From NCBI RefSeq assembly GCF_006345805.1, contig NC_043009.1, positions 63,984,001 to 64,048,000 on the forward strand: DNA of 64,000 nt. The letters are read 5' to 3'. Of the stretch, positions 1-64,000 are shown in pieces. The DNA is from Octopus sinensis (Eukaryota). Position numbers and translations under genes: made by a program. The notes beneath the pieces are model-generated. The model did not search any database and had not been told where the DNA came from. It saw only the letters and a list, made by a program, of their open reading frames with translations. Within the stretch, counting starts at the first letter, position 1; each line of letters begins with the position of its first letter.

Positions 1-675
1 CTCAGTCATACAGGAGAGAAACCTTATAGGTGTGATATCTGTGGTAAATCATACTTTGTAAATAATGCTTTGACTGTACACAAACGTATTCATACTGGAG
101 AAAAACGATTTATTTGTGATATTTGTGGTAAAGCATTTGTTGGAAGTAATGATTTAAAGGGACATAAACGAATTCATACAGGAGAAAAACCATATCACTG
201 TGATATCTGTGGTAAATCATTCCCTCGAAGTCATAGTTTGCGTAGTCACATACGTATTCATACTGGAGAAAAACCATATCATTGTGATATCTGCGGTAAA
301 TCATTCACTCAAAGTACTGCTGTAACTGTACACAAACGTGTTCATACCGGAGAAAAGCCTCGTATTCGTGGTAAAGCATTTTCACAAAGACCTGCTGTGA
401 CTGTACACAAGCCTATTCATACAAAAGAAAAGCCATATCACTGTGATGTCTGTGGTAAATCATTCACTCGAAATGATTCTTTGACTGATCACAAACGTAT
501 TCATACTGGAGAAAGGCCATATCAGTGTGATATCTGTGGTAAATCATTCTCTTACAGAAATGTATTAACTCAGCACAAACGTGTTCATATGCGAGAAAAG
601 CCATATTGTAATAGCTGTGGTAATTTATTCTCTCAACAGGATGATTTAGCTAAACATGTCTGTATTCTTCCATGA
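1..675 (+). CDS. C2H2 zinc-finger gene g1 (5'-partial; C-terminal fingers only)
   Basis: Frame open from base 1 ([14 protein letters not shown]...) to TGA 673-675; tandem CxxC-x12-HxxxH with TGEKP linkers; ends [14 protein letters not shown] like g3. Confidence 0.92.
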   Translation, partial: LSHTGEKPYRCDICGKSYFVNNALTVHKRIHTGEKRFICDICGKAFVGSNDLKGHKRIHTGEKPYHCDICGKSFPRSHSLRSHIRIHTGEKPYHCDICGKSFTQSTAVTVHKRVHTGEKPRIRGKAFSQRPAVTVHKPIHTKEKPYHCDVCGKSFTRNDSLTDHKRIHTGERPYQCDICGKSFSYRNVLTQHKRVHMREKPYCNSCGNLFSQQDDLAKHVCILP

Positions 676-7059: not shown

Positions 7060-8610
7060 AGCTTCTTTATTTCAATATTTTGCCATAAAGTCATAACATA
7101 GGGGGACACTACAAAACATAGAGGGGACATATAACAATTAAAAATATGTAGAAATAAAATATGATACTGTGAGTAACATGAAAATGAATATGGAGCCAGG
7201 TGCGGCCCCCTGGCTTCCCAGATCCCGGTCGAACCGTCCAACCCATGCTAGCATGGAAAACGGACGTTAAACGATGATGATGATGAAATTAAGGTTATGA
7301 TAACATGCATGATATGTGAAAATGAAAATATGATGAGTGTGCTACTCATCCCACGCTGAGTAACACCACTCGCTACCTCTGAGTCCGAATTCTTCTTTAG
7401 TCCCTGGTCTAGTCCCTCTATTTCCGCGCTCGCTATCACTCAATGACAACATTCTTTCGTAACCTTTTTCACCGGGGGAAGGGTCTTCTAAATTCTGTGG
7501 TGTCTGCTCTTTTTCTTTCACTTTTTTTCCTGTGGGGGAAAGGGAGTGGGTGGGTCTGAGTGGTCTTGGGTGGGATGGAGTTGGACTGGGGTACCACATC
7601 ACACTCAGTGTTCTTTCTTTTCTTCCTCTTCTTCCTTCTACTCTCTGTTACTATCCATTCTTCCTCCTTTCCTCCGTCTTTCATTTCATCCTCTTTTTTT
7701 CTCCTCCGTCTCTGCAACTGGTTGTTTCATCTATTGTTTTCTTCTGTAGAGGGCAGTGTGCTCTAACGTGGCCTTTTTGGCCACATTTAAAGCATCACGG
7801 AATTCTGCCCTCTAGCCATACTCTCAATATTATTTCTCCCAATGTCACTTTCCGCCAAATTTTCCAGCTGCTTCAACTACGTTTGTATAATTTCCAATAT
7901 TTTTCCTTTATATCCTCCTACCTCCGTCTCTGTGGCTTGGAGGACAGCCACCTCCACCTCACTTCCAATGAGGACGGCTGCTGCAACCCAAGCCACTTCT
8001 ATATCGGGTGGAATTCCTTCTACCCTCACCTTAGAAGTCTTTCTTCCAAGGTACATGAGTAGGAGTACTAATTCCTCCGTTTTTTACAGTTGTACTCACC
8101 AGCCTCTTTGCCTCCTCCACTGTCCTAAACTGGACAACCACCGTCCCATATCCATTTCCTTTCGCTATATATGTCACTTCCTTCGAAAGCCCCTTCAGAG
8201 CTTTTTCTACTTTTTCCATCTCCATCCGCTCCACCTTCCTACTCTCCACAGAGAGCACCTTGTAGGTAATGGTCTTCTTTTCCATATTTACCATAACCCT
8301 TTTCGGGGGTAATAACTTTACATCACTGCCCACCTTCTGTGTCATCTTACACAGCTACTTGAGTCCGGTTAGGTCCACTTCCCTTTTCTTTACCCCTGCA
8401 GCCTCAGCAAAACTCTTTGCTCTTTCCAAATGTTTGTCAATTCTGTTTACCGCCTTAACGAGCTCATCCTCTGCTGAGAATAGTTCATATTCGCTAAGGT
8501 CCAAATACATTCCTTTCCACTGGTATGACACTCACCGACAAACCACTGCCAAGCAGCTCAAAATATTCCATCTGTCTTGTCAAAAATCAGCACAGCGAAT
8601 AATAAACTGA
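7060..8610 (-). mobile_element. non-LTR retroelement relic carrying a gag-like ORF1 (L1/Tx1-like), antisense in g2 intron
   Basis: Frameshifted purine-rich ORF: KSFAEAAG, GYGTVVVQF, YLGRKTSKVRVEGIPPDI, CCHC knuckle CFKCGQKGHVRAHC at about 7753-7794, WIVTESRRKKRK; no ORF2 seen. Confidence 0.7.
7195..7285 (+). mobile_element. RTE-tail repeat (family B), 3' fragment
   Basis: ccatgctagcatggaaaacggacgttaaac(gat)n tail. Confidence 0.85.
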
Positions 8611-9164: not shown

Positions 9165-9782
9165 ATGGCAAAAAGCTTAGCAAAGTCTTCATATCAATGT
9201 AATATCTGTAACAAGTCATTAAGTTCAAGAAGTAATTTAGCTGATCACATACGTATTCATACAAGAGAGAAACCATTTCGCTGTAATTTTTGTGGTAAAA
9301 AGTTCGCTAGAAAGGGTGAAATACCTGTTCATGTACGTATTCATACAGGTGAGAAACCATATCAGTGTAATATCTGTGGTCAATCATTCACTCGTAAAGA
9401 TATTTTAACCACACACGGACGTGTTCATACAGGAGAGAAGCCATATCACTGTGATATCTGTGGTAAAAGGTTCACTAGAACTGGTGATTTAACTGTTCAT
9501 GTACGTGTTCATACAGGTGAGAAACCATATAAGTGTAATTTGTGCAGTAAGTCATTCGCTAAAAGTACCAATTTGACCGATCATAAACGCATTCATACTG
9601 GAGAAAAACCATACCAATGTGATTTCTGTAGTAAATCGTTTAATCAAAATAACCAGTTAATTAAGCACAGACGTATTCACACAGGGGAAAAGCCATATCA
9701 CTGTAATATCTGTGACAAATCATTTGCTCGAAATGATGAGTTAACTACACACAAACACATTCATACAGGAGAGAAACCTTAG
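9165..9782 (+). CDS. C2H2 zinc-finger gene g2, 7 fingers, prematurely terminated
   Basis: ATG GCA AAA start shared by all paralogs; TAG at 9780-9782 replaces the TAT (Tyr) of the next finger. Confidence 0.8.
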   Translation: MAKSLAKSSYQCNICNKSLSSRSNLADHIRIHTREKPFRCNFCGKKFARKGEIPVHVRIHTGEKPYQCNICGQSFTRKDILTTHGRVHTGEKPYHCDICGKRFTRTGDLTVHVRVHTGEKPYKCNLCSKSFAKSTNLTDHKRIHTGEKPYQCDFCSKSFNQNNQLIKHRRIHTGEKPYHCNICDKSFARNDELTTHKHIHTGEKP

Positions 9783-10207: not shown

Positions 10208-10939
10208 ACTGGTTTACTATGAAATTATTCTTTCTTTATGTTTTAATAACCAAATCTTGTTTGCACATTTTCTAAACTGATTTTCACCAACTGTTCACTT
10301 TAAAGCTATTTAATTCGTTGACACTTATCCTCAACATCTTGATACTCTCTTGTACACTGTCTAGCAATCTGGAACTCTTCAAGTCTCTGACCCTCAGAGC
10401 ATCTCTAGATCCTCACACTGCAATCTTCTTAATTTCTGCTTTTGCTCTTACTGAGTGAACCTGTTACCAAGCTTGCTTTTTAAGTCTCTCCATCTTTCCC
10501 GTCTTTCCAAACCTGTCTACCTCACTGTTCCACCCTGATGTCTGGTCTGGCTGAAGCTCTTCTCCAGTCTCAGATTTGGTCGTCACCCTGAAATTTTGGG
10601 GAAGGGTTTTAGTTGAATGCATCAGTCCCAGTACTTGACTGAAGCTTAATTTATAGACACTGAAAGCATGAAAGGTAAAGTCAATCTAGGTTGTATTTAA
10701 ACTCTGATGTGCTGGTGGCCCTTATAAAAAACACCTGTACTGGTGACATGTGAAAGGCACCTGGTACACTCTGGAGTGGTTGGCATCAGGAAGAGCACCC
10801 AACCACAGAAACCAGACTGGAGCCTGGTGTAGCTCTCTGGTTTCCCTTCTCATGGCAAACTGTCTTACCTATGTCAGCATGGAAAACGGATGTTAAATGA
10901 TGATGTGTGTATATTTGTGTGTGTGTCTGTGGATATAAG

Positions 10940-11430
10940 AATGGAAGGAAAGTTTTTCTGATGAGAACACAACAGAGAGGCCAGCTATCTGAATTGACAT
11001 CAAGTATGATAGATGAAGCAATTAAGGTTATGAAGACAAGGAAAGGTCCTCATTTATCAGAAATTACTGTTGATATGTTTAAAATGTCTGGTGGAGTGGA
11101 GCATAGCCAAGTCACATCATCATCATCGTCGTTTAGCGTCCACTTTCCATGCTAGCATGGGTTGGATGGTTCAATTGGGGCCTGGGAAACCAGAAGGCTG
11201 CACCAGGCCCAGTCTGATCTGGCAATGTTTCTATGGCTGGATGCCCTTCCTAATGCCAACCACTCCGTGAGTGTAGTGGGTGCTTTTTACATGCCACCGG
11301 CACAGGTGCCAGATGAGGCTGGCAAACGGCCACGGTCGGATGGTACTTCTTACGTGCTACAATATATTAATCAAGTTGTCTAGAAAGGTGTCTCACCCAA
11401 TGACTAGAGAGGCAACATTGTAGTTAACTG
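10940..11430 (+). mobile_element. RTE-like RT relic interrupted by a family B insertion (about 11116-11357, minus)
   Basis: Paralogous to 3180 and 21255, which lack the insertion at gcatagcctagtcac|. Confidence 0.75.
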
Positions 11431-11881: not shown

Positions 11882-12562
11882 CTACTTAAGAAGAGTGGTC
11901 CCAGTGCGCACATGCGTACTCGCGCATACGCGCCAGCTAGTCGTGACTAGTCGATCCTACAACGACTACCTAGCAAAGTAAATAAAACAAAATTAATAAT
12001 TTGGATGTTTTCGGTTTGAACGGCAGTTTTTTAAAATAATTTCCACGTAACTAAACACTTTTAAACTTCGTATACTGGTAGAATGTGTTTATAAAACATC
12101 TTTTTCTCGTGGCTTTATTGAGAAAATTCTATATTTGTTGTTTTTTTCCTTCAATTTCTGCAATTTCAACCAATCAATGACGTCTATTGAGGTAAAAAAA
12201 AAACATTCTGTGCCGTATGAATATGTCCCTCGTTTAAGAAACAGATTGGGTTTATTTACATTTGTGAAGAAAAAAATATACCCTTCCCCCACCACCCCTA
12301 ACTCTAACCCTAAAACAGATTGAAATGCAATAGATCGATACTAGGGTCATAATTATGGGTGATAATTTCATATGACAGCGCTAGAAAAAACTGCCGTTCA
12401 AACCGAAAAGATCCAATAATTTTTTTACACAAAGTAAATAATTTTTTAAAAACAAACTAAATAAAACACGAAAACACAAAGTTAGGATCGGATAGTCACG
12501 ACTTGCTAGCGCAGATGCACTAGTACGCGAGTGCGCGCACCGGGACCACTCTTTTGAAGTAG
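11882..12562. mobile_element. MITE with about 80-bp GC-rich imperfect TIRs
   Basis: ctacttaagaagagtggtcccagtgcgcac...cgatccta mirrored by taggatcg...gcgcaccgggaccactcttttgaagtag. Confidence 0.8.
12003..12414. mobile_element. MITE, Merlin-like (GG termini, 8-bp TSD)
   Basis: TIR ggatgttttcggtttgaacggcagttttt / aaaaactgccgttcaaaccgaaaagatcc; TSD aataattt at 11995-12002 and 12415-12422. Confidence 0.8.
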
Positions 12563-12941
12563 TACCCGAAATGTTGGGGTCGCGAAGTTCTGTTTATATG
12601 TTATTTCCGAAATCGCATTACATTTTATTTTGTCATTTAGCACCACATACCTATGTGAAAGGATTTTTTCAGCTTTAATCGTTCAAGGCTGAAAAAAGTA
12701 GAATTTGCTTTATGTCCTGCAGTGTCGAATGCTAAACCAAAGTTTAATTTGCTAGGCAACAAAAACAGGTACATGGGGGCACACTGATTTTTTTTACTTT
12801 GGCCTACTTTTGTACTCGAAACAAATTTAAAACTACTTTTATTTTGACAAATAATATAACTACTTTTTTTAAAAAAAATATGTATATTATTCAGCAAAAA
12901 AATAAATGATTTATGTATTTATTTCTATGTTTTATATTCAA

Positions 12942-13332
12942 CTAGCAGTATCGCCCGGCGTTGCTCGGATTTGTAAGGGAAATAACTATAAAGCATTTTT
13001 AGAGAGTTATAGCCAAAATATAGCAAAATAATGCATTAAAAATGGAAAAAAAATTATGGTAAATTTTTTTTAAATCGTTGACTCTTCGTAGACATTTTTA
13101 GAGAGTTACTTCCCTTATATAATAGCGAAAAAATGCATTAAAATGGAAAAAAATGATGGTAAATTATTTTTTAAATTGTAGACTCATCGTAGACGCGCGC
13201 TAATACCCAGGAGGGCTCGATATGAATCGATATGATAACCGGTTTTGGTTAAACTGCACCGCAAAATGTGGGAGTAGTTAGGAATCTAAATCGTAGGAGA
13301 CAGACACACAACTTGACTTTTATATATAAAGA
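12942..13332 (-). mobile_element. non-autonomous Helitron
   Basis: Minus strand A|TCTTTATATATAAAAG...CCGAGCAACGCCGGGCGATACTGCTAG|T; no TSD; copies at 28848 and 48541. Confidence 0.9.
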
Positions 13333-13514
13333 TATCCGCGAAAAATCTAGTGAGGGAATATGGGGTCATGAATGTAAAAAAGTTTACGAAGTGCTGCTCT
13401 AGAAATCTTTATTATAAGGCATAGGGCCTGAATAAGAAGCGCTGCTCTAAACGTTACCATATTTTTGGTTTTCTATTTATAATAATAAATGTTTTATTTT
13501 TCGGATTCTGTTAC

Positions 13515-14187: not shown

Positions 14188-14545
14188 CTTTTACCTGTTT
14201 CTGTCATTAGACTGCGGCCAGGTTGGGGCATCGCCTCTCAAAGGTTCAGACGAACAAATCGATCCTAGTACTTATTTTTTAAAGTCAGGTACTTACTATG
14301 TCGGTTACTATTTGCCTAAACGCTATGTTACGGTGACGTAAACAAACCGACTTCAGTTGTCAAGCGATGGTGGAGAGGACACACACACGCCCGGCTTCTT
14401 TCAGTTTCCGTCTATCGAATCCTTTCGTAAAGCATTTGTCGGCTCTGGATCATAGTAGAAGACACCTGTCCAAGGTGCCATGGACTGAACCCAGAAGCAT
14501 GCGATTGGGAAGCGAACTTCTTACCTCACAGCCACACCTGCGCCT
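14188..14545 (-). mobile_element. diverged SINE family A
   Basis: Colinear with 5189-5598 but more diverged. Confidence 0.8.
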
Positions 14546-16355
14546 GTAGGTGATTTTTTTTTCATCATGCTTCTGTATTTCTCATTTTGAAAGACTTGTT
14601 ATATACTTGCCATTTCTCTTTTTTTCAAAAAATACGTTTTTTAAAATTCTTCGCCCTTCATCCTGAAATTACCATTCCATTCCTGAAAAAATTGTTTAAA
14701 ATTCCATTTTTAACAGTTTGTTCCCACCTCTTGTTTTTTTTTATTTTTTCGCTTTTTTTGCCTTTCTGTAGAATACTTTTCCCTTTTCTTTGCAAGATTA
14801 CAAGTAAATATAACAAAGATGCCATGCCTACTACATGTTTATTGATTATTTTTCATCCCCAACTGACATCTTTTTCACACTTCTGCTGTTGTTAAAAAAT
14901 TTCTTGCTTGTATAACATGGTAAACAAAAAGGGAAAGAAAGAAGAAGCAAGAATTTACTAAGACAACTTAATGCATCAGTTTGATTTTCAACATCAACAG
15001 GCGAACTTTTCTGACTGTTTTTCCCTGAAGCATCCTCCAGAAAATGAAGAAATATGAGTTTTAGTGACGGAAAATTCTGCTGCACCGAAACATGTTTTCT
15101 CAGAGAGTGCTATTTGCAAGATATTTTATCCAAGACTTACAAAATTGGATGTGTGAAGAATATGATTGGAATTCTGAAAGTAGTATCTACAAAATGATAA
15201 TTTCAGTTGTTCAAAAAGTAGAAAAGAATATTTGCAACTGAAGAAAAGTATGATATCATTGTTGTCCACATGGCTGCTGAATGTCTTTCAGCATCCAAAA
15301 GTTGTTCCTTGTCCTGGAAAGTTGAGATCATGGAATGAGACAACTGGAGATTGCATGTGATAGTATGAACAGTTCCCTCTTATTGGTTTATTACTGGTAG
15401 TCCTAGCTTCTAGTGGTCATAAGTCAAGGATAATCTTATGTATATGCACAATTTAATATGTGCCGTAATGTAATATGGATGTACATTGTGCATTCCTGCG
15501 AGCCATAAGGGACAAAAGGGTTTGTATCAGGAAAATCATGGAGCCTCAAAATTTTGACAGCATGGAAAAGCTGACATAAAAATGATGGTATATCAACTTC
15601 TCTAGTATATTGTGCTTTTGTTTTTCTTTCTTACGTCTTAATGTCCAGGGGGTCAGACAGAATTGAGGCAGATTTTGTATTGTCTGCAACCTTCACTTGT
15701 TTCCAAGTAAAGTAATACTGTCCCTTTACTAGTCATGTTCACTAGAGTCTGAAAACAAATGACACTTCTTGCATAACCGAGATTCTTGCTTCCAACCATC
15801 GGACAACATGAAGGCAAGCAGACAGTTATCTTTTGAGGATATGATGTATTGTTAAAATATATTTCTCTGCTCTGTTACATATGTAAAGTTATAGAGATAC
15901 ACTGGAGGAATTCAGTTGGTCTGATCAAGGTTCACTACTACAATTTATAAATATAGTAATGAAATTAAATTTATGCTGTTTATGCATTCTTGAAATCTTA
16001 TACTGTTTTCCTTATTATTTCAGAATCAGAGATGAAGCTGGCATAAACATTTTTGTTTTTTATACAAGAGAAACATCATCAATATTTATCATCTTTTAAG
16101 GACAAATGATGTTTTGCTGAACAAATATAACTATTTTCACATAAATTTAATGAATTACATTGAATGATTTGTGTAGGCCGTTCGCTTGAATGAATATAAT
16201 ACAATTCTGCATTTTAAATATATTCACATTCAGATGATAGAGACAGCAGAAGGAATATTTGTTAGAAATAAATTACAGAAAGGAAAGCAGCAGACATATG
16301 TATTGTGGTGAGAGAAGGAAAATTATTATTCAGTGAGTTAAGCAACTGTTTCAAG

Positions 16356-17549
16356 ATGGCAAAAAGCTTGTCAAAGTCTTCATATGAATGTGATATCTGT
16401 AAAAAGTCATTCACTTCAAGAGGTAATCTAACTACTCATGTACGCATTCATACAGGAGAGAAACCATATCACTGTGATATCTGTGGTAAAAGGTTCTCGA
16501 GAAAAGATGAATTAACTATTCATAGACGTGTTCATACAGGAGAGAAACCATATCAGTGTGATATCTGTGGCCAATCATTCACTCGTAAAGATATTTTAAC
16601 CACACACAGACGCATTCACACAGGAGAGAAACCTTATCAGTGTGATATGTGTAGTAAATCATTTTCTAAAAGTACCAACTTGACCGATCACAAACGCATT
16701 CATACTGGAGAAAAACCATATCATTGTGATTTCTGTGGTAAGTCGTTCAATCAAAATAACCAGTTAATTAAGCACAAACGTATTCACACAGGAGAAAAGC
16801 CCTATCACTGTGATATCTGTGAGAAATCATTTGCTCGAAATGACGAACTAACTACACACAAACACATTCATACAGGAGAGAAACCTTATAGGTGTGATAT
16901 CTGTGGTAAATCATTCCCTCAGAATAGTGCCTTGACAGGACACAAACGTATTCATACAGGAGAAAAACCATTCCCTTGTGATATCTGTGGTAAAGCATTT
17001 GTTCAAAGTAGTGATTTAAAAGGACACAAACGAATTCATACAGGAGAAAAACCATATCATTGCGATATCTGTGGTAAAGCATTTTCTCAAAGTCCTGCTG
17101 TAACTGTACACAAACGCATTCATACAAGAGAAAAGCCATATCACTGTGATATCTGTGGTAAATCATTCCCTCGAAGTAATTCTTTGACTGATCATAAACG
17201 TATTCACACAGGAGAAAAACCATATCATTGTGATATTTGTGGTAAATCATTTATTCGGAGTAACGATTTAAAGGGACATAAACGTATTCACACTGGTGAA
17301 AAACCGTATCATTGCGATATCTGTGGTAAATCATTCTCTCAACGTACTGCTGTGATTGTACATAAACGTGTTCATACCAGAGAGAAGCCATATCATTGTG
17401 ATATCTGTGGTAAATCATTCTCTTACAGTAACCTATTAACTAAGCACAAATGTATTCATATGGGGGAAAAGTTATATCCATGTAATATCTGTGGTAATTC
17501 ATTCTCTCAACAGGATGATTTAGCTAAACATGTCTGTATTCTTTCATGA
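16356..17549 (+). CDS. C2H2 zinc-finger gene g3, 397 aa, 13 C2H2 fingers plus terminal C2HC-type finger
   Basis: Intact ORF from MAKSLSKSS to AKHVCILS. Confidence 0.95.
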
Positions 17550-25474: not shown

Positions 25475-26188
25475 TCATAAGGGTATGGGGTCTTTTTCTA
25501 CAGTCTGAATGCATCTATGTCCTTTTAAGGCACTACTTCGAACAAATGCTTTACCACAGTTATCACAATGAAATCGTTTTTCTCCAGTATGAATACGTTT
25601 GTGTCCAGTCAATGAACTATTTTGGAGGAATGATTTACCACAGATATCACATTGATATGGTTTCTCTCCTGTGTGAATATGCTTGTGTATGGTTAACTCA
25701 TCATTTCGGGAGAATGATTTGTCACAGATATCACAGTGATATGGCTTTTCTCCTGTGTGAATACGTTTGTGTTTAATTAGCTGATTACTTTGATTAAATG
25801 ATCTCCCACAAAAATTACACTGATAAGGTTTCTCTCCAGTATGAATGCGTTTGTGATCGGTCAGGTTAGTACTTCTGGAGAAAGATTTACTACACATATC
25901 ACACTGATATGGTTTCTCTCCTGTGTGAATACGTCTGTGTGTAGTTAAAATATCTTTACGAGCAAATGATTGACCACAGATATCACACTGATATGGTTTC
26001 TCTCCTGTATGAACACGCTTGTGAATAGCTAATTCACCACTTCGATAGAATGGTCTACCACAAATATCACAGTGATATCGTTTGTCTCCTGTATGAATAC
26101 GTATATGATGAACAAGATTAGCCTTTGAAGCAAACGACTTTTCACAGATATCACATTCATATGAAGACTTTGCTAAGTTTTTTGCCAT
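25475..26188 (-). CDS. C2H2 zinc-finger gene g4, 7 intact fingers plus a degenerate 8th, frameshift-truncated
   Basis: [12 protein letters not shown]...; frameshift in the linker after finger 8. Confidence 0.85.
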
Positions 26189-34338: not shown

Positions 34339-35301
34339 TCACAAATGATATGATTTCTCTTTAGCATGAATACGTTTGTGTACAGTTACCGCAGTACGTT
34401 GAGAGAATGATTTACCACAGATGTCGCAATGGTAGGTTTTTTCTCCAGTATGAATACGTTTGTGTCCCTTTAAATCATAACTCCGAATAAATGATTTACC
34501 ACAAATATCACAATGAAATGGTTTTTCTCCTGTGTGAATACGTTTATGATCAGTCAAAGAATTATTTCGAGGAAACGATTTACCACAGATATCACAATGG
34601 TACGGTTTTTCCCCTGTATGAATGCGTTTGTGTCCCTTTAAGATACTACTTTGAACAAATGCTTTACCACAGATATCACAAGGAAATGGCTTTTCTCCAG
34701 TATGAATTCGTTTGTGTCCTGTCAAGGCACTATTTTCATGGAATGTTTTGCCACAGATATCACACCGATAAGGTTTCTCTCCTGTATGAATGTGTTTGTG
34801 TACAGTTAGTTCGTCATTTCGAGAGAATGATTTCTCACAGATATTACAGTGATAGGGCTTTTCCCCTGTGTGGATACGTTTGTGTTTAATTAGCTGATTA
34901 CTTTGATTAAACGATTTACCACAGAAGTCACACTGAAATGGTTTTTCTCCGGTATGAATGCGTTTGTGATCGGTCAGGTTGGTACTGTTGGGGAATGATT
35001 TACTACACATATCACATTGATATGGTTTCTCTCCTGTGTGAATACGGATGTGATTAGTTAAAATATCTTTACGAACGAATGATTGACCACAGATATCACA
35101 CTGATATGGTTTCTCTCCTGTATGAAGACGTTTATGAATAGTTAACTCACTATTTCGAGAGAATGATCTACCACAGATATCACAGTGATATGGTTTCTCT
35201 CCTGTATGAATACGTATGTGGATAGTAAGGTAACCTTTTGTAGTGAATGACTTTTTACAAGTGTCACACTCATATGAAGACTTTGCCAACTTCTTTGCCA
35301 T
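34339..35301 (-). CDS. C2H2 zinc-finger gene g5, 11 fingers
   Basis: [12 protein letters not shown]...; a 1-nt insertion (tat cat Ttg tga) ends it at the start of finger 12; SYSNLLT..IHMGE remnant follows. Confidence 0.93.
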
Positions 35302-45594: not shown

Positions 45595-46581
45595 ATGGCA
45601 AAAAATTTAAGAAAGTCTTCATATGAATGTGATTTCTGTAAAAAGTCATTCACTACAAAAGGTCATCTTACTACTCATGTACGTATTCATACAGGAGAGA
45701 AACCATATCACTGTGGCATCTGTGGGAAATCATTCAATCAGAATGGTGAGTTAACTATTCATAAACGTCTTCATACAGGAGAGAAACCATATCATTGTGA
45801 TATCTGTGGTCAATCATTCACTCGTAAAGATATTTTAACCACACACGTACGTATTCACACAGGAGAGAAACCATATCAATGTGACATGTGCTGTAAATCT
45901 TTTGCTAAAAGTACCAACCTGACCGATCACAAACGCATTCATACTGGAGAAAAACCATATCACTGTGATTTCTGTGGTAAGTCGTTCAATCAAAGTAATC
46001 AGCTAATTAAACACAAACGTATTCACACGGGAGAAAAGCCATATCACTGTGATATCTGTGACAAATCATTCTCTCGAAATGACGAGTTGACTGTACACAA
46101 ATACATTCATACAGGAGAGAAACCGTATCACTGTGATTTCTGTGGCAAGTCATTCCATGAAAATAGTTCCTTGACTGGACACAAACGCATTCACACAGGA
46201 GAAAAACGATTCCATTGTGATGTTTGTGGTAAAGGATTCATTCGAAGCATAGATTTAAGGGGACACATGCACATTCATACAGGAGAAAAACCATACCGTT
46301 GTGATGTGTGTGGTAAATCATTCTCTCGAAATGGTGACTTAACAACACACAAACTCATTCATTCTGGAGAGAAACCACATCACTGTGATATCTGTGGGAA
46401 GTCTTACCGTCGGAATAACGAGTTAACTATTCACAAACGTACTCATACTGGGGAGAAACCATTCCATTGTGCCAGCTGTGGTAAATCATTCTCTTACAAT
46501 TGTCGGTTAAATAAGCACAAATGTATTGGTATGGAAGAAAGACTATATCATCATAATGTTTTTGGTGAATCATTCTCTTGA
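45595..46581 (+). CDS. C2H2 zinc-finger gene g6, 10 C2H2 fingers plus C2HC-type finger
   Basis: ORF from MAKNLRKSS; an upstream in-frame ATG at 45547 exists but is not shared by paralogs. Confidence 0.93.
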   Translation: MAKNLRKSSYECDFCKKSFTTKGHLTTHVRIHTGEKPYHCGICGKSFNQNGELTIHKRLHTGEKPYHCDICGQSFTRKDILTTHVRIHTGEKPYQCDMCCKSFAKSTNLTDHKRIHTGEKPYHCDFCGKSFNQSNQLIKHKRIHTGEKPYHCDICDKSFSRNDELTVHKYIHTGEKPYHCDFCGKSFHENSSLTGHKRIHTGEKRFHCDVCGKGFIRSIDLRGHMHIHTGEKPYRCDVCGKSFSRNGDLTTHKLIHSGEKPHHCDICGKSYRRNNELTIHKRTHTGEKPFHCASCGKSFSYNCRLNKHKCIGMEERLYHHNVFGESFS

Positions 46582-55150: not shown

Positions 55151-56218
55151 ATGGCAAAAAAATTAGGGAAATCTTCATATGTGTGTTGTATCTGTGAAAA
55201 GTCATTCTCTTCGAAAGGTCATCTTACTACTCATATACGTACTCATACAGGAGAGAAACCATATCACTGTGATATCTGTGGTAAGACATTCTCTCGAAAG
55301 GATGAACTGACTACTCACATACGCATTCATACAGGAGAGAAGCCATATCATTGTGATATCTGTGGTCATTCATTCACTCGCAGAGATATTTTAACTACAC
55401 ACATACGCATTCACACGGGAGAGAAACCATATCAATGTAACATGTGCAGCAAATCATTCTCTAAAAGTACCAATTTGACCGATCACAAACGCATCCATAC
55501 TGGAGAAAAACCTTATCAGTGTAATTTTTGTGGGAGATCATTTAATCAAAGTAATCAGCTAATTAAACACAAACGTATTCATACAGGAGAAAAGCCATAT
55601 CACTGTGATGTGTGTGGTGAGTCATATCCTCGAAATGACGAGTTAACTGCTCACAAATATATTCATACAGGTGAGAAACCATATCAGTGCGATACCTGTG
55701 GAAAATCATTCCGTCGAAATGGTGATTTAACTATTCACAAACGCTCTCATACTGGTGAAAAACGCTTTTATTGTGATGTTTGTGGCACAGGATTCAGCCA
55801 GAGTAATGATTTAAGGGGACATATTCGCACGCATACTGGGGAAAAACCGTATCGGTGTGATATCTGTGACAAATCATTCACTCGAGGGGATGAGTTAACC
55901 GTCCACAAAAACCTTCATGCAGGAGAAAAACCACATCAGTGCGATATCTGCGGGAAATCATTCAGTCGAAAATACGATGTAACTACGCACAAATCCATTC
56001 ATAGTGGAGTGAGGCCGCATCAGTGTGACATCTGTGGTAAATCATTTCTTCGCAAAAATCAACTGACCACTCACAAACGTAGTCATACTGGAGAGAAACC
56101 ATATCATTGTTATAATTGTGGTCAGTCGTTCAGTTACAGTTATCGGTTAACTCAGCACAAATGTATTAGTACGGGAGAAAATGTGTATCATAATATTTTT
56201 GATAAACCATTGTCTTAA
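55151..56218 (+). CDS. C2H2 zinc-finger gene g7, 11 C2H2 fingers plus C2HC-type finger
   Basis: Intact ORF from MAKKLGKSS. Confidence 0.95.
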
Positions 56219-63465: not shown

Positions 63466-64000
63466 ATGGCAAAAAACTTAGCAAAGTCTTCATATGAATG
63501 TGATATCTGTAAAAAGTCATTCACTACAAAAGGCCATCTTACTACTCATGTACGTATTCATACAGGAGAGAAACCATATCACTGTGATATCTGTGGGAAG
63601 TCATTCAATCAGAATGGTGAATTAACTATTCATAAACGTCTTCATACGGGAGAGAAACCATATCAGTGTGATATCTGTGGTCAATCATTCACTCGTAAAG
63701 ATATTTTAACTACACACAGACGTATTCACACAGGAGAGAAACCATATCAGTGTGATATGTGCTGTAAATCCTTCTCTAAAAGTACTAACTTAACCGATCA
63801 CAAACGCATTCATACCGGAGAAAAGCCATACCAATGTGATTTCTGCGGTAAATCATTCAATCAAAATAACCAGTTAATTAAACACAAGCGTATTCATACG
63901 GGAGAAAAGCCTTATCACTGTGATATCTGTGACAAATCATTCTCTCGAAATGATGAATTAATTGCTCACAAACACATTCATACAGGTGAGAAGCCTTATC
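63466..64000 (+). CDS. C2H2 zinc-finger gene g8 (3'-partial; missing from the ORF track because it runs off the window)
   Basis: ATG at 63466: [28 protein letters not shown]...; six complete fingers with no stop to 64000. Confidence 0.93.

What the first reader, a model, noticed from the sequence alone, without database searches (positions are those of the whole stretch)
16551..16871. Constant-core / variable-arm ZNF system with no effector domain (main candidate system)
Seen in all seven paralogs with a visible N-terminus: helices (-1..+6) F3 R[KR]DILT[TN], F4 [KRN]STNLTD, F5 Q[NS]NQLIK, F6 RNDEL[TI]x are almost fixed despite synonymous changes. F1-F2 vary and F7 onward differ in number, order and sequence. 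Finger-specific residues outside the helix are also kept (F3 G[QH]S, F4 C[DN][ML]C[SC], F5 C[DN]FC, F6 HK[HY]IH). Only 9 aa precede F1, so there is no KRAB/ZAD/BTB/SCAN. Known: tandem ZNF clusters such as KRAB-ZFPs diversify against TEs, and octopus has a large clustered C2H2 expansion. Inference: F3-F6 is a constant module (shared DNA anchor or cofactor/dimer surface replacing an effector domain) and the arms are interchangeable specificity modules.
Basis: partly seen in the sequence, partly recalled or inferred. Interest (0 to 1): 0.75.

Follow-up and report, generated by a model that had tools for sequence, protein, structure and literature searches.

The report
Octopus zinc fingers with fixed core
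Twenty-four related zinc-finger genes on one chromosome of what is likely an octopus keep the DNA-reading residues of their middle fingers nearly fixed while silent sites and the neighbouring fingers change, so they likely all dock on one shared short DNA site, which is not yet identified.

Summary
All 7 window paralogs match all four helix motifs; genome-wide the family has 24 genes in three clusters on contig C13, of which 12 match all four exactly and the rest keep the key residues. Other zinc-finger families of this genome with similar flank divergence lose their fingerprints (2 of 39 pairs vs 32 of 42). Constraint sits on positions -1/2/3/6, peaks at F4-F5 and extends to F2, which points to a shared DNA site rather than a cofactor surface. 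Positive selection on the arms is not shown (site test p 0.55). The short leader is real but common among this genome's zinc-finger genes. Target, effector and other species were not reached. The scan noted constant-flank, shuffled-finger clusters elsewhere in this genome, described as young; this family is older and selected. A new variant of a known kind.

The parts
16551..16886 (+). Core F3-F6 of the reference paralog (helices RKDILTT, KSTNLTD, QNNQLIK, RNDELTT; canonical TGEKP linkers)
   Evidence: contact dN/dS 0.23, 0.24, 0.06, 0.49
16383..16550 (+). F1 (contacts free, dN/dS 1.18) and F2 (partly constrained, 0.43-0.60)
16887..17549 (+). F7 (contacts free, dN/dS 1.4-1.5) and tail F8-F13 plus a degenerate last finger; tails reuse a few finger types in different order and number
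16356..16382 (+). 9-residue basic leader M-A-K-x-x-x-K-x-x; A2 in 23 of 23, K3 and K7 in 22 of 23
16000..16355 (+). Conserved splice acceptor (AG 16022-16023) and inferred non-coding 5' part of the exon, with in-frame stops (last at 16269-16271); its 3' end is homologous to DNA that encodes an acidic N-terminal peptide in sister genes
   Evidence: splicing itself inferred
1..675 (+). Tail of an eighth paralog whose leader and core lie just left of the window (L038)
9165..9782 (+). Paralog with an extra finger between F3 and F4 and a stop directly after F6; decayed finger remnants follow to about 9977
25475..26188 (-). Paralog, core 25658-25993; frame ends after the eighth, degenerate finger, remnants follow
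34339..35301 (-). Paralog, 11 fingers, core 34771-35106
45595..46581 (+). Paralog, 10 canonical fingers, core 45790-46125; a SINE-like insert lies in its 5' region
55151..56218 (+). Paralog, 11 canonical fingers, core 55346-55681
63466..64000 (+). Paralog running off the window (complete in L039, 10 fingers), core 63661-63996

Best explanation
This is a 24-gene family of finger-only C2H2 proteins whose middle fingers (F3-F6, partly F2) are held by purifying selection at their base-contact positions, so all members likely bind one shared DNA site of about 12-15 bases. Shown: family size and layout, equal synonymous rates, a four-fold drop in contact-residue dN/dS in the core, near-neutral change at the contacts of F1 and F7, and tails rebuilt from a few finger types. 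Inferred: the core is the working DNA-binding subset of a long array; the outer fingers keep their fold and add affinity or local preference but are not fixed on one sequence; tails change by unequal crossing-over between paralogs. With no folded effector domain, members would act by occupying the site or through the short lysine-bearing leader. A high-copy or conserved element as target would explain why many copies are kept, but that is untested.
For: Codon model, 23 of 24 genes, F1-F7: synonymous rate core 1.02, arms 0.98; nonsynonymous 0.19 vs 0.38; contacts 0.26 vs 0.99 (LRT 48.6), same on a second tree (0.26 vs 1.09). Hold-out of 16 genes: 0.31 vs 1.11, p 7.5e-9. Pairwise dS F4 0.58, F5 0.58 vs F1 0.36, F2 0.45, F7 0.44. 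Per-site: zero change at F3 -1/2, F4 3, F5 -1/3, F6 -1. Linkers canonical. Controls: at flank divergence 0.10-0.20, 32 of 42 family pairs vs 2 of 39 pairs of other genes share at least 13 of 16 contacts over four fingers; the constant block of a C28 family is only youth (97% identity, dN/dS 0.74). Two window genes that lost their tails keep a constrained core (pN 0.034-0.045, pS 0.26-0.45). Precedent: ZNF160/ZNF665 have some fingers fully constrained, others flexible, and related motifs (PMC10547255, passages); core-dependent recognition in ZFY and CTCF (PMC10287918, abstract).
Against: No binding data. A site predicted from the recalled recognition code is not enriched in 854 kb of fetched DNA (21 seen, 37.7 expected) and does not match local repeats better than permuted matrices (30% of permutations as good). 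Non-helix positions are also more constrained in the core (0.16 vs 0.28, p 3.5e-6), which a protein surface could cause. On single-finger trees the contrast weakens for F3 (0.49) and F6 (0.60), while F2 (0.43) and one tail finger type (0.32) are constrained too, so the boundary is graded. Trees of 5' region, F1-F2 and core disagree in places (rank correlations 0.13-0.39), so recombination affects the estimates. One genome only.
Confidence: 0.6

Rival explanations
1. Anchor plus selected specificity arms: the core docks on a common element and F1, F7 and the tail are positively selected to tell its subfamilies apart. This is compatible with the shared anchor and differs in what the arms do.
For: F1 and F7 contact dN/dS 1.33-1.37, p 0.013-0.027, 1.39 and 1.40 in the hold-out, while their scaffolds stay constrained (0.28-0.32). 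One tail type keeps its contacts across positions (0.32). Tail fingers are nearest to a finger of another gene in 88 of 92 cases, at the same index in only 34.
Against: Site model finds no class above 1 (LRT 1.2, p 0.55). F1+F7 was picked after looking, and recombination inflates such tests. Tails run from 0 to 9 canonical fingers and two window genes have lost theirs.
Confidence: 0.2
2. The core is a protein surface (cofactor or dimer) standing in for an effector domain, and the arms carry the DNA specificity.
For: Lower non-helix dN/dS in the core (0.16 vs 0.28); F4 Met in 20 of 23, dN/dS 0.16. Zinc fingers can bind proteins (10.1101/2025.09.04.674178, search listing). No folded effector is present.
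Against: Invariance falls on -1/2/3/6; most finger-specific residues are not constrained. Linkers are of the DNA-binding type. Arms with neutral-like contacts make poor sole readers. Many sister genes lack both effector and core, so no replacement is needed.
Confidence: 0.1
3. The core binds a structured RNA rather than DNA.
For: The same helix face can read RNA (recalled: TFIIIA, WT1); F6 lacks the usual Arg of H-x-R-x-H in 23 of 24 genes (read).
Against: The conserved pattern (R-1 with D2, N3, Q-1, K6 next to D2) is the classic DNA code (recalled); canonical linkers.
Confidence: 0.06
4. Recent duplication or gene conversion keeps the core alike without selection.
For: Region trees disagree in places; hold-out synonymous rate is a little lower in the core (0.82 vs 0.97); F3 and F6 have lower synonymous rates (0.69, 0.82).
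Against: F4 and F5, the most constant fingers, have the highest synonymous rates (1.30, 1.33); third-position distance 0.22 core vs 0.23 F1-F2; core contacts differ from neutral at p 2e-23.
Confidence: 0.04

Closest known systems
Coleoid cephalopod C2H2 zinc-finger expansion (PMC12513265, part 1 of 7 read; PMC9068888, 4 passages)
   Same: Clustered, duplicated poly-C2H2 genes in a large genome; same exon plan as many other zinc-finger genes of G000.
   Different: The parts read treat counts, trees and expression, not finger-level selection. This family keeps one fingerprint where other sampled families of the genome do not.
Human KZFP paralog pairs ZNF160/ZNF665 and ZFP69/ZFP69B (PMC10547255, passages)
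   Same: Paralogs with some fingers fully constrained and others flexible, related motifs, overlapping targets.
   Different: Pairs rather than 24 genes; they carry KRAB. That paper finds generally no more than two KZFPs of one cluster on the same TE subfamily.
Core and dependent flank recognition in ZFY, CTCF, ZIM3, ZNF343 (PMC10287918, abstract)
   Same: A subset of fingers binds a core site; outer fingers act only with an intact core.
   Different: Single conserved genes; here the outer fingers vary among paralogs, and binding is untested.
Hemipteran ZF271-like/APEZ families (PMC6444547, passages) and cyprinid FiNZ-ZNFs (PMC10547256, passages)
   Same: Lineage-specific clustered expansions; ZF271-like proteins have no domain besides fingers.
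   Different: No constant core described in the passages read; FiNZ has a 28-residue acidic domain and positive selection in 4 of 7 clades.
Young mouse KZFP clusters (PMC5363842, PMC11952569, passages)
   Same: Finger duplication, deletion and shuffling among neighbours, as in the tails here.
   Different: Shared fingerprints there go with recent duplication; here they persist at dS 0.3-0.6.

Membership tests
Tandem Kruppel-type C2H2 proteins | C-x2-C-x12-H-x3-H units joined by TGEKP linkers | tested here: met
   Pfam PF00096 and PF13465 far above cut-off
Coleoid C2H2 expansion | Clustered paralogs in a coleoid genome | tested here: inconclusive
   Clusters shown. Octopus is inferred: 2.72 Gb genome, highest identity among the 120 listed hits is an Octopus protein (63%). 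Family members in other species not found.
KRAB-ZFP | N-terminal KRAB domain, usually from upstream exons | tested here: not met
   9-residue leader; every listed conserved acceptor (21 of 23 genes) is followed by in-frame stops before the ATG; a C/T-AG acceptor within 12 nt of the ATG in only 5 of 23; no KRAB among the 25 of 49 Pfam rows shown
KRAB-ZFP | Binds and silences transposable elements | tested here: inconclusive
   Only a recalled-code prediction on local DNA, negative
ZAD, BTB or SCAN zinc-finger proteins | Folded N-terminal oligomerisation domain | tested here: not met
   Open frame before the ATG is 1-49 codons, 28 in the reference gene, and not conserved
FiNZ-ZNF | 28-residue acidic N-terminal domain | tested here: not met
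   Leader is 9 residues and basic. Sister genes have an acidic peptide with no Pfam match above cut-off.
SNAG-domain repressors | N-terminal P-R-S-F-L-V peptide (recalled) | tested here: not met
   Leader is A-K-x-L-x-K with only positions 2, 3 and 7 constrained
SNAG-domain repressors | Leader recruits LSD1 | not testable with these tools
   SNAG-LSD1 link from search listing only (PMC7649360)
PRDM9-type finger minisatellite | Fingers homogenised within one gene | tested here: not met
   Nearest finger lies in the same gene for 0 of 96 core and 4 of 92 tail fingers
Core plus dependent flank recognition (ZFY, CTCF type) | Outer fingers read DNA only with an intact core site | not testable with these tools
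   Needs binding assays

The most novel reading that the evidence does not exclude
An anchor-and-reader family: 24 effector-less proteins dock on one fixed element through a shared core, while exchangeable outer fingers read the flanks and split that element's subfamilies or genomic contexts among the paralogs, with the lysine-bearing leader as a minimal recruiting peptide.
Probability: 0.2. Interest if true: 0.72.

Novelty: new variant of a known kind. Interest (0 to 1): 0.42.

Why it matters
Cephalopods have hundreds to thousands of C2H2 genes with almost no known targets or silencing route. Here selection marks which fingers matter, so one binding experiment on a 4-5 finger core should give the site for 24 genes at once and show whether it lies in a transposon or a host regulatory element. 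A whole cluster held on one site would depart from the human KZFP pattern, where cluster mates usually diverge in target. If the arms only drift, the family is a clear case of a long array using a subset of its fingers.

Tried and rejected
Other species: three protein searches listed no family member (checked by motif for the 240 proteins; best identity 62%); each scored only about 7,900 candidates, so this is no evidence of absence. Exact look-ups missed 20 of 20 predicted proteins, 5 controls from other families included: uninformative. Atlas: generic C2H2 only. PDB: generic arrays only. Expression: no RNA holder listed. Contigs of four runs guessed to be RNA: one record bridges the in-frame stop at 16269-16271 by 31 letters or more on both sides, two others run from about 16245 through the ATG without a joint; intronic pieces also occur and tables were cut, so this is a weak hint only, and the first exon was not found. 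The finger-coding part has no read data. Core homodimer prediction: no answer. A CTCF-like first-exon motif, a lead from earlier notes: my recalled patterns gave 2 scattered hits in 9 kb upstream of 23 genes, not a shared cassette. Predicted site: not enriched. One search gave arm contact dN/dS 1.45-1.52 with p about 0.001 or lower; the optimiser had not moved the tree scale, so it was discarded and rerun. Rfam: nothing. PMC4795812 is not held. No supplements were read; those of PMC12513265 may list these genes.

Full report
Observation. The stretch 16551-16871 (+) encodes fingers 3-6 of a 13-finger C2H2 ORF. The window holds eight such arrays. One of them (ATG 9165) has an extra finger between F3 and F4 and stops directly after F6.

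Family. The window is G000:C13:63984001-64048000 of a 2.72 Gb genome. Two searches of the genome, each scoring 150 candidates, put the same 24 genes on top, all on C13. I fetched 434 kb over the three clusters, the window included, and listed all finger ORFs: 2 genes near 62.81 Mb, 9 at 63.98-64.06 Mb and 13 at 69.23-69.38 Mb, plus two fragments and one chance match. Every multi-finger gene in these stretches carries the core, so the set was not selected by it. In all 24 the exact motifs hold in 16, 17, 18 and 18 genes, all four in 12; six contact residues are invariant, and F2 keeps R-1 and E3 in 21.

Selection or conversion. Pairwise dS is 0.58 in F4 and F5 against 0.36, 0.45 and 0.44 in F1, F2 and F7, while dN is 0.05-0.06 against 0.16-0.18. 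A codon model on 23 of the 24 genes (the one without a start codon left out; F7 missing in one; for one gene with an extra first finger the second was taken as F1) gives equal synonymous rates in core and arms (1.02, 0.98) and nonsynonymous rates of 0.19 and 0.38. At positions -1, 2, 3 and 6 dN/dS is 0.26 in the core and 0.99 in F1, F2, F7 (LRT 48.6, p 3e-12), 0.06 in F5; a second tree agrees. Because the core was defined on seven genes, I repeated the test on the other 16: 0.31 against 1.11, p 7.5e-9. An earlier run with an unoptimised scale was discarded. Against a sharp picture: trees of the 5' region, F1-F2 and core disagree in places, and on single-finger trees only F4 (0.19) and F5 (0.06) stay strongly constrained, with F2 0.43, F3 0.49, F6 0.60. 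Constraint is a peak at F4-F5 with shoulders from F2 to F6.

Controls. I sampled 80 further loci of this genome, chosen from search hits and so not at random. A C28 family (16 genes seen) also has a constant block and variable tails, but at 97% nucleotide identity and dN/dS 0.74, not different from 1: youth alone. For 98 genes (23 family, 75 others) I compared divergence of the 330 nt before F1 with the best four-finger contact match, keeping pairs with at least 150 aligned bases (212 of 253 family pairs; 1537 binned of 2775 other pairs). At divergence 0.10-0.20, 32 of 42 family pairs but 2 of 39 other pairs share 13 or more of 16 contacts; at 0.15-0.40, 116 of 190 against 3 of 1382. Pairs are not independent and the distance saturates near 0.3, so the first bin is the fair one. 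In a C30 cluster of similar mean divergence (0.20 vs 0.22) 0 of 32 pairs above 0.15 pass.

What the core does. Per-site estimates put the invariant residues at base-contact positions: F3 R-1 and D2, F4 N3 (D6 21 of 23), F5 Q-1 and Q3 (N2, K6 22 of 23), F6 R-1 (D2 22 of 23). The finger-specific surface residues mostly are not constrained: F3 Gln 0.92, F5 Phe 0.57, F6 His/Tyr 1.01; F4 Met (0.16) is the exception. They look inherited rather than selected. Linkers are canonical. This favours a shared nucleic-acid site (inference). By the recalled recognition code the site would read about 5'-N-C-G-K-N-A-C-A-N-N-N-G-K-3'. It is not enriched in 854 kb of fetched DNA (21 seen, 37.7 expected), and 4,046 locally repeated 12-mers match it no better than permuted matrices. 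Such predictions are weak: PMC10547256 (passages) recovered 11 of 236 known motifs. The target is therefore open.

The arms. F1 and F7 keep their scaffolds (non-helix dN/dS about 0.3) but change contacts at 1.2-1.5. Pooled they exceed 1 at p 0.013-0.027, a post-hoc choice; a site mixture finds no class above 1 (p 0.55). Tails hold 0-9 canonical fingers after F6; 4 of 92 tail fingers are nearest to a finger of the same gene and 34 of 92 to the same index in another gene, and they fall into a few types, one with constrained contacts. So tails are reshuffled among paralogs, as described for mouse clusters (PMC5363842, passages) and noted by this scan for young clusters elsewhere in this genome (not checked here). 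Two window genes have lost their tails yet keep a constrained core; assembly error is possible, though the remnants are decayed. Selected specificity and drift both fit.

The N-terminus. A conserved acceptor lies 332-521 nt before the ATG (99 nt in one gene) in the 21 of 23 genes where my pattern found it, always followed by in-frame stops; a C/T-AG within 12 nt of the ATG occurs in 5 of 23. An upstream coding exon therefore cannot join the fingers at the conserved acceptor, and no folded effector is likely; splicing itself is inferred. The trait is not special: the acceptor region is shared with zinc-finger genes on six other chromosome-sized contigs, several of which start with the same kind of short basic leader, while others keep an acidic peptide whose DNA is homologous to the broken stretch just before the family's ATG. 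The leader is under some constraint (dN/dS 0.49, p 2e-5; A2, K3, K7). A2 may reflect the start-codon context; the lysines could serve import or recruitment. Short N-terminal peptides can be effectors (SNAG; PMC7649360, search listing), so nine residues do not prove that none exists.

Comparison and novelty. Each ingredient is known: cephalopod expansions (PMC12513265 part 1 of 7; PMC9068888 passages), finger-only families (PMC6444547 passages), paralogs with constrained and flexible fingers (PMC10547255 passages), core-dependent recognition (PMC10287918 abstract), shared fingerprints in young clusters (PMC11952569 passages). It is not a KRAB, FiNZ, SNAG or PRDM9-type family by the features tested. 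What is unusual is scale: 24 paralogs holding one fingerprint at dS 0.3-0.6 in a genome where sampled families of like divergence lose theirs.

Verdict. Real and selected; most likely a shared DNA anchor (0.6), with selected arms as the bold extension (0.2). One genome, no target, no binding data. New variant of a known kind; interest 0.42.

Noticed in passing
L041, L046, L054, L057-L059, L061-L080 (most), L084, L096, L101-L116; homologous DNA at window about 16290-16355: Many zinc-finger genes on other contigs begin with an acidic peptide of about 35 residues (starting M-E-N-E-L or similar) with no Pfam match; in the C13 family the homologous DNA has a deletion of about 35 nt and stops, and a downstream Met is used. 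In the young C28 family the peptide shows no constraint (dN/dS 0.91, low power). A FiNZ-like candidate, untested across families.
   Followed up: partly
window 15995-16170: The acceptor and first 100-180 nt of the exon are shared with zinc-finger genes on C1, C4, C9, C10, C21 and C30: one gene plan for a large superfamily.
   Followed up: partly
window 16024-16355 and paralogs: The inferred 5' UTR part of the exon carries 2-15 upstream ATGs per gene; probably chance in A+T-rich DNA, but it could limit translation.
   Followed up: no
L087, L089, L090 (C27): Three paralogs keep nearly the whole 20-finger fingerprint at 11-12% flank divergence, unlike close relatives L081, L086, L095.
   Followed up: no
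L035 (G000:C13:62818077-62820483, minus): A family member without leader or start codon, preceded by a broken two-finger piece (F4-F5 like) about 800 nt upstream; looks like an interrupted or partly duplicated gene.
   Followed up: partly
L012:940-2151 (+): Paralog with F1-F4-like fingers present twice before F5 and the most eroded core (QNIQLIN, RIDTLTV).
   Followed up: no
window tails, e.g. 17055-17138 and 17307-17390: A recurring tail finger type has Val instead of Leu at helix position 4 and constrained contacts (dN/dS 0.32).
   Followed up: partly
window 10740-11370, 12010-12430, 12860-13490, 14340-14550: Very high-copy repeats between the genes (summed contig depth in the thousands to tens of thousands), probably SINEs.
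   Followed up: no
window 7342-8354 (minus): Frames resembling a decayed retroelement ORF; not examined.
   Followed up: no
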